A stretch of 64,000 nt of DNA. Source: Candidatus Kapaibacterium sp. (GTDB taxonomy: Bacteria > Bacteroidota > Ignavibacteria > Kapaibacteriales > UBA4661). How positions within the stretch are numbered: position 1 is the first letter of the stretch; every line of letters begins with the position of its first letter. The notes under the pieces are model-generated. The model was not told where the DNA came from. It saw only the letters and a program-made list of their open reading frames with translations, and made no database searches. The position numbers and the translations under genes were made by a program. Of this stretch, positions 21,086-26,948 are shown piece by piece. Where the stretch lies: contig RDXM01000106.1 of the NCBI GenBank assembly GCA_004292595.1, forward strand, positions 4,946 through 68,945, given 5' to 3'.

Positions 21086-21109
21086 TTGAATTCAAGGGAT
21101 GCAATTTGG

Positions 21110-21145
21110 TATGAAGTTTGCACCAACACTTACAGGCAAGAATGC
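21110..21145. repeat. family 1 palindromic repeat, right half only (truncated copy)
   Basis: gcaccaacacttACAGGCAAGAATGCCTGTGCCACt. The left hairpin is absent. Confidence 0.5.
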
Positions 21146-21203
21146 CTGTGCCACTAAGGTTTTTAGAAACTACATTTTTGCCATTTATACTTTTCCGTTC
21201 ACT

Positions 21204-24200
21204 ATGCTCCGTTTCGCTACTTTTTGCTTTTTTTTTGCTACAATCAACATCCTCCAAGCCCAGCAACCAAGCGGATTTCCCGCAGACATGGAATCCCGCT
21301 TGCAACAGGAACGCCTCGCAGGACTCGTCCACACCATACACGTAACGGTGAATGATGACGACTACACCTTCAAAGGCACATCGCGCGTTGAGTTCACGAA
21401 CAACACGCCCGACACGCTGCGCCAAATCTTCTTCCACGCACATTTCAACGCTTTTCAGCCGAATAGTTTGACGGCAAAGCGCGTGGCGGCAATCGGTCCG
21501 AACCGCTTAAAACCTGAAACCTTTGCGAATTTGAAACCCAGCGAAATTGGCAAATTAGAAATATTGCCCGGAACAAGCACCGTAGCCGGTATCGGTGCGG
21601 CGTTCACGGTAGAACGCTTGGGGACGATTATTCGACTGGATTTGTCCAAACCGCTTTTGCCCGGGGAGCGCACCACGCTTGAGTTTGCGTTTGAGGGACA
21701 AGTGCCAGTGCAGGTGCGGCGTTCAGGGCGCAATAATGCTCAGGGTGTGCGCTATTCGATGGCGCAATGGTTTCCGAAATTGTGCCAATACGACCAGCAC
21801 GGCTGGCAAAATAACCAGTTTGTGCTGCGCGAATTTTACGGCGTGTGGGGCAAGTACGATGTGAAAATTACGCTGCCCGCAAAGTACGTCGTGGGCGCGT
21901 CGGGCGACCTCCAAAACCCGCTTGAAATGGGATACGGCTACGAATTCGACCGCGATTCGGTGAAACTTCCTGCGCCTGACAGCGAAAAGCCGCAAGGCAC
22001 AAAAACATGGCACTTCGTCGCCTTTCCCGTGCATGATTTCGCGTGGGTGGCGGATGCGGACTACATTCACCGCGTTGTGAAAATGCCTACTTCTTCAGCA
22101 ATTTCACCAAACATGACCTTTCACATTCTTACCAAACCCAAGTACGATGCGGTCTGGAAGAATGCGACGGACTGGCTGCCGCGTATTTTCCACTTTTTGG
22201 GCGAAAAATATTTGCCGTATCCGTACAAACAATTCACCTGTACGCAAGCGGGCGACGGCGGTATGGAGTACCCGAACCTAGTAATGATACGCTCTTCGGA
22301 CTACAACGGCACATTGGGAACAGTCGCGCACGAGGCGATTCACCAATGGTTTTACGGCATGGCGGCGAACAACGAAACCAAACACGCGTGGATGGACGAA
22401 GGCATCACGGATTATCTCACGGACCGCATTATGTCGGAAGAGTTCAACATTGACGAACAGACGCACTCTACGTGGCTTGAAAACGCGCTTATTCCGCGTC
22501 GCAAGGATGCGTTGGAATCGAACCGCGCATTTCTCCGCGTGTACGCGCTTGGCTACGACGAACCGCTCTCTATCCCGCATGACCGCTTCAACGAGGACAT
22601 GACCGCCGTGATGGTCTATCGCAAAGGTTCGGCGTGGATGCGGCAGTTTGAGTATTCGTTTGGAAAAAATAAAATGGATGAATTACTCAGGAATTATCAG
22701 GGTTTGTGGCGATTCCGTCATCCGTATCCGCCAGATTTTGAGAAAATTGCGTCGGAAACCTTCGGACAGCGCATGGATGAAGTCTTTGACACGTTCTTGC
22801 GTGGAACAGAACTGCCCGACTACACGCTCCAATCCTTGCGTTCTGAGCCGACAAGCGACGGCAAATACAAAAACACGTTGCAGCTAACGAAGCGAGAACG
22901 CGCCCACGTACCGCTCAATCTCTACGCAAGTGATGGTGCGGGTTCTGTGGCTAAAATTCATATTCCGAGCGATATGCTGAATGCGCCGAATAAGGACACA
23001 AGCCGCCTCGCACCTTGGTTTTGGGCAGCAGGCGACTACACGGCGGAGTTTATCACGCCGCGCCCCATAACGAGTGTTCGACTGGACACCGCAGGAAATC
23101 TGCTTCGGAACGACCTTACGAAAAATCAAATTCAAGCTGGTGGATTATTTCCCGCAATGCCAGAAGTGAAACTTGGCTTTATGACGCGCTTCGATGAAGC
23201 ACAGCCGCTTGATTATTATGGCGTGTCGGTGCGCCCTTCGGTGTGGTACGACCCGCTTGGGGGCTTACAGCTTGGGGTTCGGGCGGATGGTGTTGGTGGT
23301 TACAATACGCCGAAACTCACGGCTGGGGCGTATTACAATTTGGGGAATCAGCGTTTTGATTGGCAGCTAGGATATTCACAAATGCTGGGCGGTGCAGGTG
23401 CGTCGGGAACTGCGCAAGTAGAGGCTCGTTTTTTTAGTATGGACGGCGTTACGGCATTCACAAACCGTATTCTGACTGATGTTCGACCTGTGCGCTATGC
23501 GCGTGAAAATTTGCAGATTAGTTCGATTTATACAGATATTTGGAACTTCCGCGACCCGTCGCATTATGGCGGGGAATTGTTCATACGCAATGAGCAGTTT
23601 ATACGGTTTGGAACAGTTGCCGAACAGCGTTGGAAGACAGGTTTTACGCAGATGGAAGCGAATTTTGCAATCACTTTATCGGGCAATGTATCGGTACGTC
23701 CGCAAATTCGTTTTGAATGGGCAGAAAACCTTGTAAGCGGCAATATTGCTGTGCTTTCGGCACGATTATTTGGCAATCTTTCCTTAGGAACGCCGTTTGC
23801 AACGCGCTATTCACTGCAAAGTGGCACAGCCATTGAACGCTTTGAAAATATTCCGTCGCGCTTCACGCGCTTTGCCGCATACAGTCTGGGTTTACCCGTC
23901 TTTACGCCTGGCGGAGCAGGTTTTGTGCGCTCTACGCCCGAACTTATGGAAGGAATTGCTGCCGTTAATCTCTTTCTTGGCAATCGCACACTGCGACAAT
24001 CTTTCGGTTTAGACCTCATCGGTGTTGATGCTCTGAAGCCTGGAATATGGCTGGCGGCTGGGCTTGCGGCGGCGGAGTTTGGCAGAAATTCAGGCAGTTT
24101 GCTGAATACATTCCACTTCGATTCTGGCATTTCCCTCAGCATCAATCTCGCCGATACACGCTCGGCAGGCAGGTATCTTTTCATGTTCCAAGATGAAGTA

Positions 24201-24305
24201 TCGTTGACCGCCTACGTGCCGCTTGTTTCCTACATTCCTGGGCGGAATTGGGTGCTTGGCTACGACGGTGTGCGCATTGGCGTAAGTACGACGATTCCGC
24301 GATAA
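21204..24305 (+). CDS. secreted M1-family zinc metallopeptidase with a long C-terminal extension, possibly an outer-membrane beta-barrel
   Basis: The signal peptide MLRFATFCFFFATINILQAQQ begins at the ATG at 21204. A GDGGMEYPNLVMI motif is present, and the gluzincin signature HEAIHQWFYGMAANNETKHAWMDEG fits HExxH-x18-E. The C-terminal 450 aa show alternating-hydrophobic beta patterns. Confidence 0.7.
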   Translation: MLRFATFCFFFATINILQAQQPSGFPADMESRLQQERLAGLVHTIHVTVNDDDYTFKGTSRVEFTNNTPDTLRQIFFHAHFNAFQPNSLTAKRVAAIGPNRLKPETFANLKPSEIGKLEILPGTSTVAGIGAAFTVERLGTIIRLDLSKPLLPGERTTLEFAFEGQVPVQVRRSGRNNAQGVRYSMAQWFPKLCQYDQHGWQNNQFVLREFYGVWGKYDVKITLPAKYVVGASGDLQNPLEMGYGYEFDRDSVKLPAPDSEKPQGTKTWHFVAFPVHDFAWVADADYIHRVVKMPTSSAISPNMTFHILTKPKYDAVWKNATDWLPRIFHFLGEKYLPYPYKQFTCTQAGDGGMEYPNLVMIRSSDYNGTLGTVAHEAIHQWFYGMAANNETKHAWMDEGITDYLTDRIMSEEFNIDEQTHSTWLENALIPRRKDALESNRAFLRVYALGYDEPLSIPHDRFNEDMTAVMVYRKGSAWMRQFEYSFGKNKMDELLRNYQGLWRFRHPYPPDFEKIASETFGQRMDEVFDTFLRGTELPDYTLQSLRSEPTSDGKYKNTLQLTKRERAHVPLNLYASDGAGSVAKIHIPSDMLNAPNKDTSRLAPWFWAAGDYTAEFITPRPITSVRLDTAGNLLRNDLTKNQIQAGGLFPAMPEVKLGFMTRFDEAQPLDYYGVSVRPSVWYDPLGGLQLGVRADGVGGYNTPKLTAGAYYNLGNQRFDWQLGYSQMLGGAGASGTAQVEARFFSMDGVTAFTNRILTDVRPVRYARENLQISSIYTDIWNFRDPSHYGGELFIRNEQFIRFGTVAEQRWKTGFTQMEANFAITLSGNVSVRPQIRFEWAENLVSGNIAVLSARLFGNLSLGTPFATRYSLQSGTAIERFENIPSRFTRFAAYSLGLPVFTPGGAGFVRSTPELMEGIAAVNLFLGNRTLRQSFGLDLIGVDALKPGIWLAAGLAAAEFGRNSGSLLNTFHFDSGISLSINLADTRSAGRYLFMFQDEVSLTAYVPLVSYIPGRNWVLGYDGVRIGVSTTIPR

Positions 24306-24376
24306 CGCACCGTTGGAAAAACAAGGTTCTTTCAGTAGATTTGAAATACGATATTTCCCACTATTTTTTGTATCAA

Positions 24377-24718
24377 ATGCTTCCAAAACGTGGTGAAATC
24401 TGGCTTGTCGAGTTCGACCCTCAGCGTGGTGCGGAGATTGCGAAAAAACGCCCTGCTGTTGTCTTGTCCGTAGATAGCATCGGGCATTTACCATTGCGTA
24501 TGGTCGTTCCATGCACCGATTGGAAACCTGAGTTTGAGTCGTATTCGTGGTTTATCGCTCTTCAAGGCACAGCGAGTGGACTTCGTAAGCCAAGCGGCGC
24601 GGATGCTTTTCAATGCAAAAGTTTTTCACTTGACCGTTTTGTGAAAAAACTTGGTTCTGTTACACCGAGCGAACTGAATGAAATTGCGCTTGCCGTTGGC
24701 TTGTGTATTGGGCTTTGA
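24377..24718 (+). CDS. MazF/PemK-family endoribonuclease toxin
   Basis: KRGEIWLVEFDPQRGAEIAKKRPAVVLSVDSIGHLPLRMVVPCT is the PemK/MazF signature. The upstream extension of the listed ORF (24248) overlaps the peptidase gene and is unlikely to be real. Confidence 0.7.
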   Translation: MLPKRGEIWLVEFDPQRGAEIAKKRPAVVLSVDSIGHLPLRMVVPCTDWKPEFESYSWFIALQGTASGLRKPSGADAFQCKSFSLDRFVKKLGSVTPSELNEIALAVGLCIGL

Positions 24719-24747
24719 TTCAATTCTCTTCTTATTTTTGTACCATT

Positions 24748-25086
24748 ATGGCTACTCTGCATTCCTCCTCAAAAAGTCTTGCACAACAGACAAAAGATGC
24801 TGTGCCAATAACCATTCGCCTTATGCCAGAGGAGAAGGCGGCATTCCGCAAACTTGCTCAAGCAAAAGGACTTTCCTATAGGCGACTGCTCATGGAGCTT
24901 GTTCATACTGCGCAAGGCACCGATGCGCAACCGCACTCAGGAGTACCACGACCATCGGAACTCTATAAATTGTCTCGACAAGAACGTGATTCTATCTTGC
25001 AAAAACAGAGTATTGCGGCTGCGAGTTTGTATGCACAGCATCCTGAACTTATTGCCGATGGCAGTGATGACGTGATTGAGTATTAG
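24748..25086 (+). CDS. ribbon-helix-helix (CopG/ParD-like) protein, putative antitoxin, with a C-terminal extension
   Basis: Beginning at MATLHSS..., the sequence ITIRLMPEEKAAFRKLAQAKGLSYRRLLMELV matches RHH motifs. It lies immediately downstream of the mazF-like gene. Confidence 0.45.
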   Translation: MATLHSSSKSLAQQTKDAVPITIRLMPEEKAAFRKLAQAKGLSYRRLLMELVHTAQGTDAQPHSGVPRPSELYKLSRQERDSILQKQSIAAASLYAQHPELIADGSDDVIEY

Positions 25087-25099
25087 AGGTGATATTTTC

Positions 25100-25963
25100 C
25101 TACTGCTTCGCATGAATCGACCACAGGAGCTTGTTTTTCAGCAAATCATAGTACGAATTTTCCACGCGCTTCAGGAGCTTCACAACGCGCTCTGATTTGC
25201 GAATAACAACGCGCTCCTGCGGCTCAAGCGGCGTAAGATGCTGCCCGTCGGCAACAAGGCTTGTAATGCCACTTTCCGCGCCAGTGGTGAGCATAATTTC
25301 GAGCGTGTCGGGAATAACTAAGGGGCGCATATTCAGCGAGTGCGGCGAAACGGGCGTTAGCACAATCACGTGGCAATTCGGCGCGATGATTGGACCACCA
25401 CTTGAGAGCGAGTACGCCGTTGAACCCGTCGGCGTGGCAATAATCAAGCCGTCAGCGTGGTATTCTGCGACGGGAACATTATCAATCACCGCATCAATGG
25501 TAATCATGCGGGCAAAATCGCGTTTGTGAATCACGAAATCGTTCAGCGCGTAGAGCATCGTATTATTTGCCTTTGTTTCAAGAATGGTGCGGTCTTCAAT
25601 GATAAAATCTCCTTTCAAAAGCGCATTAAAACCATCTTCCAATTCCTTCACCGAGTATTCCGCCAAAAAGCCCAGCTTCCCAAGATTCACGCCCATTATC
25701 GGCAATTCCGCCGCGAGAAATTCCTTTGCCGCACCCAGCATCGTGCCATCGCCGCCAAAAGAAACGATTGCATCCACGTACTTGTCGAAATGTGCGTATT
25801 CATGCGCTTCAGCGAGCTTTTTTGCTTCCGCACTAAAGAGCGCGTGAACTTCTGGCGACACATAACAACTCATACCCCTCTCGCGGGTAATCCGCGCCGC
25901 CGCTTCCGTGCAGGCGATTGCTTCGGGTTTGGTGGTGTTTACAAAAAGTCCGATGTTTTTCAT
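25100..25963 (-). CDS. nadK: NAD kinase
   Basis: GGDGTMLGAAKEF...PIMGVNLGKLGFLAE (GGDG and NE/D motifs). Confidence 0.85.
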   Translation of the reverse strand: MKNIGLFVNTTKPEAIACTEAAARITRERGMSCYVSPEVHALFSAEAKKLAEAHEYAHFDKYVDAIVSFGGDGTMLGAAKEFLAAELPIMGVNLGKLGFLAEYSVKELEDGFNALLKGDFIIEDRTILETKANNTMLYALNDFVIHKRDFARMITIDAVIDNVPVAEYHADGLIIATPTGSTAYSLSSGGPIIAPNCHVIVLTPVSPHSLNMRPLVIPDTLEIMLTTGAESGITSLVADGQHLTPLEPQERVVIRKSERVVKLLKRVENSYYDLLKNKLLWSIHAKQ

Positions 25964-26171: not shown

Positions 26172-26948
26172 TTATTTCTCTTTCCCTTCCCAGCGCAAGC
26201 CTTCGCATGGAATGTAGCTTTCGCTCACGTGTTCATCCATGACGCGGCAAAAATGCCCTGTTGCATCGAAGTAACGGCAGGTGGCGCAGAGCGAGTTTTG
26301 CTCTAAATGCTCGGTTTGTGATTTGAAGCGTTGGTACTGCAAGTACGCTGGATACGCCACCAAAAGCCAGAACACGCCTAAGCCCGCGTACCAATACTCG
26401 TACAAGCGATACCGCTCCACAACGAACCACGTAAGCGCAACAAGAACAGCAGTTTTTATCAAGCCCCACAGTAAAATTGAACCAACGGTAATTTCTGGTA
26501 CAGGACTGTACACAAGCTGCGATGAGCCTTTCGTGCCTTTACTGCTATTGCTTTCATCTTCCTCCGCATAGAAACGCGAGTGTTCAAGCGTATCATCGAC
26601 GAGTTTATCAATGTCGTCGGTGTTTTTATTGTCGATAACGTCAGCATCTCTGCGGTTAAGGGGGTGTTTTGGTTCGTCGTCGTCGGTGCTTTTCGGGCGT
26701 GATTGAAATGCGTGTGGATGCAGCTCGCGCTCGTCGAGGTCGCTGATTTTTGTGTCAATTCCCAAGCTCCGAAGCTCAATTCCACCAATCATTTTGCCAC
26801 GATGTAAGCCCGTAATGCCGCTTTCAGAGCGACTTTTGGGCGATTGCGTTGGTAATGAAGAAGATTGCTCGGAAAGACCAGTCGTGATGCTGCTTGCAGG
26901 ATATTTTCCCGTCAGCTTGAACCAGAAGGAAGCGAAGAATTGACGCAT
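26172..26948 (-). CDS. hypothetical membrane protein with a C-terminal Cys cluster
   Basis: Two TM helices and an acidic low-complexity region. The C-terminus reads CATCRYFDATGHFCRVMDEHVSESYIPCEGLRW. Confidence 0.4.
   Translation of the reverse strand: MRQFFASFWFKLTGKYPASSITTGLSEQSSSLPTQSPKSRSESGITGLHRGKMIGGIELRSLGIDTKISDLDERELHPHAFQSRPKSTDDDEPKHPLNRRDADVIDNKNTDDIDKLVDDTLEHSRFYAEEDESNSSKGTKGSSQLVYSPVPEITVGSILLWGLIKTAVLVALTWFVVERYRLYEYWYAGLGVFWLLVAYPAYLQYQRFKSQTEHLEQNSLCATCRYFDATGHFCRVMDEHVSESYIPCEGLRWEGKEK

What the first reader, a model, noticed from the sequence alone, without database searches (positions are those of the whole stretch)
24377..25086. Reverse-order MazF-like toxin followed by an extended ribbon-helix-helix protein
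The PemK/MazF-type endoribonuclease gene (24377-24718) has no upstream partner. Its start directly abuts the peptidase gene. It is followed after 30 bp by a 112-aa protein whose N-terminus is a clear RHH (ITIRLMPEEKAAFRKLAQAKGLSYRRLLMELV). That protein has a roughly 50-aa C-terminal extension of unknown nature. Canonical mazEF and pemIK operons put the antitoxin first. A toxin-first MazF module with a C-terminally extended RHH partner is atypical. It might represent a distinct TA or defence-associated arrangement, or the RHH might be a regulator rather than an antitoxin.
Basis: partly seen in the sequence, partly recalled or inferred. Interest (0 to 1): 0.5.

Follow-up and report, generated by a model that had tools for sequence, protein, structure and literature searches.

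The report
MazEF toxin-antitoxin pair, gene order swapped
This is an ordinary MazF-type toxin-antitoxin pair in a Kapaibacterium genome whose two genes sit in the reverse of the usual order, a rare arrangement for this family that does not amount to a new kind of system.

Summary
mazF (24377-24718) has no upstream partner and is followed after 29 bp by a 112-aa ribbon-helix-helix (RHH) protein (24748-25086). One detail is wrong: mazF lies 71 bp after the peptidase gene and does not abut it.

The downstream protein is the cognate antitoxin, not an odd regulator. The closest MazF relatives outside this lineage (66-68% identical) carry the same protein, with the same RHH and the same C-terminal end (…PELIADGSDDV.EY). 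There it sits in the canonical upstream position, overlapping or nearly touching mazF.

The "extension of unknown nature" is a portable C-terminal tail that travels with this MazF clade. It was found upstream of mazF in 78 of 80 independent metagenome loci, attached to five different N-terminal parts. It was never found as the only partner downstream.

Toxin-first order is confined to one narrow lineage with five sequence versions. Wherever the upstream flank is visible, the pair follows the same M1-peptidase gene. Both genes are under purifying selection. In one relative mazF is broken while the antitoxin is intact.

Verdict: a real type II MazEF module with a rare, lineage-specific gene-order swap. 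How its expression is controlled remains inferred. No defence link was found. Interest is modest.

The parts
24306..24376 (+). 71-bp spacer between the stop of the M1-peptidase gene and the mazF start; presumed promoter/operator region (inferred)
   Evidence: Sequence read. It contains TAGATTTG (24336-24343), a match to the Bacteroidota -7 consensus TAnnTTTG. The match is kept in L009 and has one mismatch in L003. There is no sigma-70-type hit on the + strand and no inverted repeat. Function not shown.
24377..24718 (+). mazF: PemK/MazF-family endoribonuclease toxin, 113 aa
   Evidence: Pfam PF02452 at E 1.3e-19 over the full profile length. PDB MazF9 at 2e-12 and E. coli MazF at 1e-7. Arg25 and Thr47 align with E. 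coli MazF Arg29 and Thr52 (the catalytic role of those residues is from my knowledge of the literature). dN/dS is 0.04-0.08 against orthologues.
24719..24747 (+). 29-nt T-rich spacer between mazF and the antitoxin gene, so the two are not translationally coupled; possible antitoxin-specific promoter (speculative)
   Evidence: TATTTTTG at 24733-24740 lies 7 nt before the ATG but is not conserved as an exact match in orthologues. Canonical-order relatives instead have a 4-nt overlap or a 1-2-nt gap.
24748..25086 (+). Antitoxin gene, 112 aa plus stop
   Evidence: 100% identical to a hypothetical protein, EAZ92_08425, of a Candidatus Kapaibacterium sp. metagenome-assembled genome (MAG). Homologous to the upstream partners of the nearest canonical-order MazFs. 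dN/dS is 0.12-0.25 within the toxin-first lineage.
24802..24918 (+). Ribbon-helix-helix DNA-binding/dimerisation domain (residues about 19-57: strand VPITIRL, then helices 27-40 and 44-57)
   Evidence: Family-level Pfam hits to NikA-like (4e-08), RHH_10, ParD and RHH_1. PDB profile hits to MazE7, Mnt and ParD, all weak. AlphaFold2 helices. Fold matches to Arc, CopG, NikA, VapB26 and TacA.
24943..25083 (+). C-terminal tail that travels with MazF (residues about 66-112: PSELYKLSRQERDSILQKQSIAAASLYAQHPELIADGSDDVIEY), presumed to neutralise the toxin; a predicted short helix and a long helix, then an acidic end finishing in Tyr
   Evidence: Tail HMM scores 96 bits here. The same module is found in partners of 78 of 80 related MazF loci, with RHH, Phd/YefM, AF2212-like, HTH_3+Peptidase_M78 or no N-terminal domain. 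AlphaFold2 gives H69-74 and H77-97 and a low-confidence end. No Pfam model and no PDB relative. Binding to MazF is inferred, not shown.
21099..24305 (+). Context only: M1-family peptidase gene whose 3' end is the conserved upstream neighbour of the toxin-first module
   Evidence: Pfam Peptidase_M1 at 6.8e-12. The same neighbour is seen in L010/L011. By nucleotide alignment of the gene's 3' end it is also seen in L003 and L009. No evidence of a functional link.

Best explanation
This is a type II MazEF-family toxin-antitoxin module whose two genes have changed places. MazF is a ribosome-independent endoribonuclease. The downstream 112-aa protein is its cognate antitoxin. The antitoxin's N-terminal RHH domain dimerises and presumably binds the module's own promoter. 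Its C-terminal helix plus acidic, Tyr-terminated tail presumably wraps the MazF dimer and blocks its RNA groove, as solved MazE tails do.

The swap happened once, in a narrow Kapaibacterium-related lineage, from an ancestor with the usual antitoxin-first order. The pair has since been inherited vertically next to an M1-peptidase gene.

Shown here:
- the identity of both proteins;
- homology of the antitoxin to upstream partners elsewhere;
- association of the tail with MazF;
- conservation of the arrangement and purifying selection on both genes.

Inferred:
- physical neutralisation and autoregulation;
- that antitoxin excess is secured without translational coupling, for instance by an extra promoter in or after mazF, as in mqsRA, rnlAB and hicAB.
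For: (1) The toxin is a full-length PemK/MazF with the catalytic Arg and Thr positions conserved.

(2) The nearest MazFs outside the lineage are P0005 (68% identical) and the L013 MazF (66%). Each has an upstream partner overlapping by 4 nt or separated by 2 nt. Those partners align end to end with the window's downstream protein, with 18 invariant columns including the terminal D-G…Y.

(3) A tail HMM finds the C-terminal module next to 78 of 80 related MazF genes, on five kinds of N-terminal scaffold and also alone. The tail, not the RHH, is what tracks MazF.

(4) Toxin-first order recurs in five diverged versions (window, L003/4, L008/10-12, L009, L016), with dS of 0.75-1.9. dN/dS is 0.04-0.08 for the toxin and 0.12-0.25 for the antitoxin. 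The toxin is more conserved than the antitoxin (about 85% against 52% identity to L010), as is usual for TA pairs.

(5) In L009 mazF has lost its 5' end and is frameshifted while the antitoxin gene is intact. That is the expected order of decay for a TA pair.

(6) The window holds no second mazF or tail-bearing gene.
Against: There is no experimental or structural evidence of binding or toxicity.

The tail has no solved or curated relative. Its only link to a named antitoxin family is one weak NCBIfam MazE hit in a distant member (E 0.004).

No operator-like repeat was found upstream of mazF. The candidate -7 boxes are poorly conserved, so the regulatory part is conjecture.

The broken mazF in L009 shows that the module is dispensable in at least one relative.
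Confidence: 0.85

Rival explanations
1. The downstream RHH protein is only a transcriptional regulator. MazF here is a solitary toxin controlled at the level of expression or by a factor encoded elsewhere, as M. xanthus MazF is controlled by MrpC.
For: The RHH domain is a DNA-binding fold. Binding to MazF has not been shown. Solitary MazF is a known situation (reviewer discussion in PMC2701414).
Against: The conserved and MazF-linked part of the protein is the C-terminal tail, not the RHH. The tail occurs with Phd/YefM, AF2212-like and HTH+ImmA scaffolds and on its own, always beside MazF. The same protein occupies the classical antitoxin slot in sister lineages.
Confidence: 0.05
2. The pair is an inert relic of a rearrangement, for example the inner T-A of a decayed A-T-A-T tandem, and no longer works as an addiction or stress module.
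For: Tandem arrangements exist in the clade: L032 has A-T-x-A'. L009 carries a broken mazF. L010 carries a MazE-like C-terminal remnant right after the antitoxin gene. All of this shows that this site collects TA debris.
Against: Both window genes are intact. The catalytic residues are kept. dN/dS is far below 1 across genomes that are saturated or nearly so at synonymous sites.
Confidence: 0.07
3. The module is a phage-defence (abortive infection) unit, or is functionally coupled to the adjacent M1 peptidase, for example through protease-gated release of the toxin.
For: The module sits directly after the M1-peptidase gene in every relative where the flank is visible. Many relatives fuse the same tail to an ImmA/IrrE-type metalloprotease, so protease-linked control of this MazF clade exists elsewhere.
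Against: PADLOC gives nothing significant. No defence or mobile-element genes flank it in the window. Synteny within one narrow lineage is explained by vertical descent. The canonical-order relatives are not next to a peptidase. On an unaided reading of the sequence, the M1 peptidase starts with what looks like a signal peptide; no signal-peptide prediction was run. If it is exported, it would not meet a cytoplasmic antitoxin.
Confidence: 0.03

Closest known systems
Canonical-order sister modules of the same family (metagenome loci L001/L002 with P0050+P0005; L013/L014 with P0051)
   Same: The toxin is homologous (66-68% identity). The antitoxin is homologous too, with the same RHH, the same linker-helix-tail layout and an almost identical C-terminal end.
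   Different: There the antitoxin is first and is translationally coupled (4-nt overlap or 2-nt gap). Here the toxin is first with a 29-nt spacer, in a different genomic neighbourhood.
Mycobacterium tuberculosis MazEF9 (MazF-mt1; PDB 5HJZ, 6KYT)
   Same: It is the best solved relative of the toxin (E 2e-12). The antitoxin chain of the complex (6kyt_C) appears among the RHH fold matches of the window antitoxin model, although at low probability (0.25, rmsd about 15 A).
   Different: No detectable sequence similarity in the antitoxin tail.
E. coli MazEF / ChpBIK and plasmid Kis-Kid/PemIK
   Same: Same toxin fold and catalytic positions (35% identity, Arg29/Thr52 aligned). The same logic of an acidic C-terminal antitoxin tail ending in an aromatic residue (comparison from my knowledge of the MazE sequence).
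   Different: Their antitoxins use an AbrB/SpoVT-type DNA-binding domain, not RHH, and the antitoxin gene comes first.
Reverse-organised type II systems (higBA, hicAB, mqsRA, rnlAB, brnTA)
   Same: The toxin gene precedes the antitoxin gene. Those systems secure antitoxin excess through extra antitoxin promoters, and their toxins destabilise operator binding instead of acting as corepressors (review PMC7167474). This is the best available model for how the window's module could be regulated.
   Different: Their toxin folds (RelE-like, HicA, MqsR, RnlA, BrnT) and their antitoxins are unrelated. No internal promoter has been demonstrated here.
PemK_toxin T->A pairs recorded in TASmania (S5 Table of PMC6504116)
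   Same: A database-level record shows that toxin-first PemK pairs exist at trace frequency, including one with an RHH_1 partner: T23->A42, 0.56% of that cluster's pairs.
   Different: These are only counts of predicted gene pairs. No analysis, lineage or partner homology is given, so whether any belongs to this family is unknown.

Membership tests
PemK/MazF toxin family (Pfam PF02452) | Significant full-length match to the family profile | tested here: met
   E 1.3e-19, 70.8 bits against a cut-off of 23.1, profile positions 1-105 of 109. PDB MazF9, MazF, MazF7 and Kid matched at 2e-12 to 2e-4.
PemK/MazF toxin family (Pfam PF02452) | Catalytic Arg and Thr/Ser positions (E. coli MazF Arg29, Thr52) conserved | tested here: met
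   Arg25 (…KKRPAVV) and Thr47 (…VVPCT) align with them. Arg25 is invariant across 25 clade members. The role of these residues is taken from the literature as I recall it.
PemK/MazF toxin family (Pfam PF02452) | Sequence-specific endoribonuclease activity and growth inhibition | not testable with these tools
   Needs expression and RNA cleavage assays.
Type II toxin-antitoxin module of the mazEF type | Two small co-directional adjacent genes, one a toxin and one a DNA-binding protein with a separate C-terminal toxin-binding part | tested here: met
   113 aa and 112 aa, 29 nt apart, on the same strand. RHH plus tail architecture. The tail tracks MazF in 78 of 80 loci.
Type II toxin-antitoxin module of the mazEF type | Antitoxin gene upstream of, and usually overlapping or abutting, the toxin gene | tested here: not met
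   The order is toxin then antitoxin, with a 29-nt spacer. This is the one organisational feature that departs from the family norm.
Type II toxin-antitoxin module of the mazEF type | Antitoxin binds and neutralises the toxin and autoregulates the operon | not testable with these tools
No operator repeat was found.
MazE/AbrB-SpoVT-type antitoxins (Pfam MazE_antitoxin) | Swapped-hairpin AbrB-like N-terminal domain | tested here: not met
   No MazE_antitoxin or AbrB hit at E up to 0.1-1. The N-terminal domain is RHH.
Ribbon-helix-helix (Arc/MetJ/CopG) superfamily | N-terminal strand-helix-helix matching RHH profiles and folds | tested here: met
   Five of 7 family members hit NikA-like (best 4e-08) and RHH_10. 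AlphaFold2 helices 27-40 and 44-57. Top fold matches are Arc, CopG, NikA, VapB26 and TacA, with TM relative to the target up to 0.8. The window protein alone stays below Pfam cut-offs.
Known reverse-order TA families (HigBA, HicAB, MqsRA, BrnTA, RnlAB) | Toxin belongs to the RelE/HigB, HicA, MqsR, BrnT or RnlA fold | tested here: not met
   The toxin is PemK/MazF only. The gene order is shared but the proteins are not.
Catalogued anti-phage defence systems (PADLOC-DB 2.0) | Significant match of either protein to a defence-system model | tested here: not met
   The only hit is mad7 at E 0.048 for MazF. The antitoxin has none.

The most novel reading that the evidence does not exclude
The order swap has rewired control of a MazEF module. 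The antitoxin would be made from its own promoter or a near-leaderless transcript starting in the 29-nt spacer. mazF would be transcribed from the 71-bp region or by read-through from the M1-peptidase gene. The module would then behave like mqsRA or hicAB, with the toxin displacing the repressor, instead of showing the conditional cooperativity of classical mazEF. That would make this a natural experiment on whether gene order dictates TA regulatory logic, with canonical-order sister modules of the same proteins available as controls.
Probability: 0.2. Interest if true: 0.45.

Novelty: new variant of a known kind. Interest (0 to 1): 0.3.

Why it matters
The module adds little to what is known about how MazEF systems work, but it is a clean natural pair of controls. 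The same toxin and the same antitoxin family exist in both gene orders, which lets one test directly how gene order affects the toxin/antitoxin ratio, translational coupling and autoregulation.

The side result may be more useful. A widespread C-terminal tail that travels with this MazF clade has no Pfam model and no solved relative. It is fused to at least five different N-terminal modules, including an XRE-ImmA/IrrE metalloprotease. A profile for this tail would improve the annotation of many 'hypothetical' partners of MazF.

Tried and rejected
- Sigma-70 promoter and intrinsic terminator scan of 23900-25400. It found no + strand promoter and no terminator, and the counts were at chance level.
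- Bacteroidota -7 motif TAnnTTTG. There is one match before each gene, but the window-wide count is at chance (49 against 43.6 expected) and the matches are poorly conserved in orthologues. I kept them only as speculation.
- Near-perfect 11-12-nt inverted repeat inside mazF (24619-24652). As RNA it folds no better than shuffles (z -0.24). It decays without compensation in orthologues, and its conservation is explained by the conserved peptide KSFSLDRFVKKL. Rejected as a demonstrated element.
- Rfam scan (E up to 1) and a tandem-repeat search of 23800-25600, run to exclude an RNA antitoxin. Both found nothing.
- PADLOC. Nothing significant.
- PDB sequence and profile searches with the antitoxin and with a 24-sequence tail alignment. 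They gave only weak RHH hits and nothing credible for the tail.
- AlphaFold of a MazF-linker-MazF-linker-tail fusion with a paired alignment.
- Literature searches for a described toxin-first mazEF/pemIK. I found reverse order described only for other families, plus trace T->A counts in a TASmania table.
- Word-index and exhaustive protein searches with the full antitoxin. The full-length RHH+tail family is tiny: 8 clusters among 5.8 billion and 4-5 representatives among 1.8 billion. The tail had to be traced through MazF neighbours instead.

Full report
**What is in the sequence**

On the + strand, an ATG at 24377 opens a 113-codon ORF that stops at 24716-24718. An ATG 29 nt later, at 24748, opens a 112-codon ORF that stops at 25084-25086. 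The preceding gene is a 1068-codon M1-family peptidase that stops at 24305, so mazF follows it by 71 bp and does not abut it. Downstream lies a convergent NAD kinase gene (25100-25963, minus strand), followed by a 258-aa ORF with no Pfam match and then, by my reading of its sequence, uvrA. The window is 100% identical at protein level to a Candidatus Kapaibacterium sp. MAG, phylum Bacteroidota in the NCBI taxonomy.

**The toxin**

The first ORF is a full-length PemK/MazF protein. It matches Pfam PF02452 at E 1.3e-19. Its best solved relatives are M. tuberculosis MazF9 (2e-12), E. coli MazF (1e-7), MazF7 and Kid. Arg25 and Thr47 align with Arg29 and Thr52 of E. coli MazF. I recall those two as the catalytic pair. 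Arg25 is invariant in an alignment of 25 clade members.

**The downstream protein**

On its own, this protein gives only sub-threshold RHH hits. At family level the RHH call is solid.
- Five of seven homologues hit NikA-like (best 4e-08) and RHH_10, and some hit ParD or RHH_1.
- An AlphaFold2 model (mean pLDDT 69) has the two RHH helices at residues 27-40 and 44-57. A poorly ordered linker (58-68) follows, then a short helix (69-74), a long helix (77-97) and a low-confidence acidic end.
- The model's best PDB fold matches are all RHH proteins: VapB26, NikA, Arc, CopG, TacA and the MazE of MazEF-mt1. Foldseek E-values are not significant for so small a domain.

**The key result: the same protein is the upstream partner elsewhere**

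The full-length family is tiny. It has eight clusters among 5.8 billion proteins and four or five representatives in the exhaustive search.

Two of its members lie upstream of their MazF in the classical antitoxin slot. P0050 sits in L001/L002 and overlaps mazF by 4 nt. P0051 sits in L013/L014 and is separated from mazF by 2 nt. Those MazFs are the closest relatives of the window's toxin outside its own lineage, at 68% and 66% identity. The partners align with the window protein from the RHH strand to the last residue. Compare …AQHPELIADGSDDVVEY with the window's …AQHPELIADGSDDVIEY. The window's pair is therefore an ordinary antitoxin-toxin pair with its two genes permuted.

**What the C-terminal extension is**

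I built an HMM of the last 45 or so residues and iterated it over all ORFs of 80 metagenome loci fetched with a MazF alignment. Those MazFs are 46-64% identical to the window's.

| Finding by HMM among the 80 loci | Loci |
|---|---|
| Tail-bearing ORF immediately upstream of mazF | 71 |
| Tail-bearing ORFs on both sides (L032) | 1 |
| Nothing recognised | 8 |

On inspection, six of the eight unrecognised loci also have an upstream ORF with a recognisable tail. The other two are cut by contig ends. The final count is 78 of 80 with the tail upstream and none with it only downstream.

The tail follows a loose pattern: L.KLP..ER..IL..QA..AA..Y, then an acidic stretch with aromatic residues. It is attached to several different N-terminal parts:
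- RHH domains;
- a Phd/YefM domain;
- an AF2212-like domain;
- a roughly 400-aa HTH_3 plus Peptidase_M78 (ImmA/IrrE) protein;
- nothing at all.

It has no Pfam model and no relative in the PDB. One distant member weakly touches an NCBIfam MazE model at E 0.004. The part of the partner protein that tracks MazF is therefore the tail. This is what one expects of a toxin-neutralising segment, and it argues against the reading that the protein is only a regulator.

**How far the toxin-first order extends**

Toxin-first order was found in five sequence versions:
- the window;
- L003/L004;
- L008/L010/L011/L012;
- L009;
- L016.

Where the upstream flank is present, mazF follows the 3' end of the same M1-peptidase gene. 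This holds for the window, L010/L011, L003 and L009. The downstream neighbours all differ.

Synonymous divergence among these versions is high, with dS from 0.75 to 1.9. Both genes are nevertheless under purifying selection, with dN/dS of 0.04-0.08 for mazF and 0.12-0.25 for the antitoxin. The toxin is more conserved than the antitoxin, at about 85% against 52% identity to L010. That asymmetry is the usual pattern in TA pairs.

In L009 the 5' end of mazF is deleted and the remainder is frameshifted, while the antitoxin gene is intact. A broken toxin beside an intact antitoxin is the expected order of decay. The canonical-order relatives are the nearest outgroups. The simplest history is therefore a single swap in the ancestor of this lineage. 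A tandem A-T-(x)-A' locus such as L032 shows one easy route: duplication followed by loss of the outer copies.

**How it probably works**

The protein-level mechanism is that of MazEF and is inferred by homology and gene association. The open question is regulation.

Canonical relatives couple toxin translation to antitoxin translation through a 4-nt overlap or a 1-2-nt gap. The toxin-first versions have spacers of 29-96 nt. Reverse-organised systems studied in E. coli (mqsRA, rnlAB, hicAB) use extra promoters to supply the antitoxin, and their toxins displace the antitoxin from the operator (PMC7167474).

In the window, one match to the Bacteroidota -7 consensus TAnnTTTG lies before each gene, at 24336-24343 and 24733-24740. 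The window-wide count of this motif is at chance, and the matches are not well conserved in orthologues. Neither an operator-like repeat nor a terminator was found. I treat a separate antitoxin promoter as a reasonable but untested idea.

**How unusual it is**

Reviews and surveys list reverse order for higBA, hicAB, mqsRA, rnlAB and brnTA, and a candidate GNAT family has also been proposed. I found no description of a toxin-first mazEF.

TASmania's supplementary table shows that A->T pairs dominate the three PemK_toxin clusters I examined. In cluster T23, the main A->T pair makes up 99.24% of pairs. In cluster T122, the main A->T pair makes up 93.15%. The T->A pairs in these three clusters are rare. 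One with an RHH_1 partner is 0.56% of one cluster. One with RelB is 0.01%. A doubtful one with ParBc is 3.76%.

The arrangement is therefore rare, but it is visible at trace level in databases. It is a variant in organisation, not a new system. Nothing ties it to defence: there is no PADLOC match and the neighbours are housekeeping genes.

**Verdict**

It is wrong in treating the extended RHH protein as something unusual or possibly not an antitoxin. My confidence that this is a MazEF-family TA pair with the downstream protein as antitoxin is about 0.85. Novelty is a new variant of a known kind, and interest is about 0.3.

Noticed in passing
L029 709-1920, L030 1277-2482, L039, L041, L045 and about 17 further loci (list): In about 22 of 80 related loci the protein upstream of MazF is a roughly 400-aa fusion. 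It combines an XRE-type HTH (HTH_3), an ImmA/IrrE Zn-metalloprotease domain (Peptidase_M78, HExxH motif) and the same MazF-linked C-terminal tail. In effect this is a protease-containing antitoxin for MazF. Makarova et al. 2009 list COG2856-Xre with RelE and PIN toxins, not with MazF.
   Followed up: partly
L010 2790-2918 (also L011 and L012): A 42-aa ORF overlaps the end of the RHH antitoxin gene. Its sequence is MKLLRIELEPTADALDEILARITPENLHSETDWGAAEGKELW. It looks like the C-terminal toxin-binding tail of E. coli-type MazE (…[21 protein letters not shown], from my memory of that sequence). It is probably a remnant of a second, AbrB-type mazE.
   Followed up: no
L009 2090-2468: mazF is a pseudogene here. 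About 55 nt covering the start codon and the first dozen codons are deleted, and there is a 1-nt insertion. The downstream antitoxin gene (P0048) is intact.
   Followed up: yes
L015 118-468 (P0056): This 116-aa protein has a different, unannotated N-terminal half but the same tail as the window antitoxin (…PSELHKLPLHERNAILQ…ANPELIADGSDDVNVY). A 274-aa protein follows it, and the same protein also follows the antitoxin in L010 (3004-3828). No mazF is visible on this short contig.
   Followed up: no
L032 84-1232: This locus has a tandem arrangement: antitoxin (AF2212-like domain plus tail), mazF, an 88-aa ORF, then a second tail-bearing ORF. It shows a possible intermediate on the way to a gene-order swap.
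   Followed up: partly
L003 866-2384: In this relative, two more TA-like pairs follow directly after the mazF-antitoxin pair: UPF0175/DUF3368, and BrnT with a 135-aa partner. The site downstream of the peptidase gene acts as a small TA island with variable content.
   Followed up: no
window 24619-24652: There is a near-perfect 11-12-nt inverted repeat (AAGTTTTTCAC … GTGAAAAAACTT) inside the 3' third of mazF, about 100 nt before the antitoxin start. As RNA it is no more stable than shuffled sequences (z -0.24), and it is only partly kept in orthologues. It is probably a by-product of the conserved peptide KSFSLDRFVKKL.
   Followed up: partly
window 21099-24305: In the 1068-aa peptidase, Pfam covers only residues 385-566 (Peptidase_M1). 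The N-terminus looks like a signal peptide, and the last 450 or so residues have no annotated domain.
   Followed up: no
window 26172-26948 (minus strand): This 258-aa ORF lies between the NAD kinase gene and uvrA and has no Pfam match. It has a low-complexity acidic middle and a Cys-rich C-terminal end (CATCRYF…C…C).
   Followed up: no
L001 237-737: A hicA-hicB pair, a naturally toxin-first family, lies about 2 kb upstream of the canonical-order mazEF relative.
   Followed up: no
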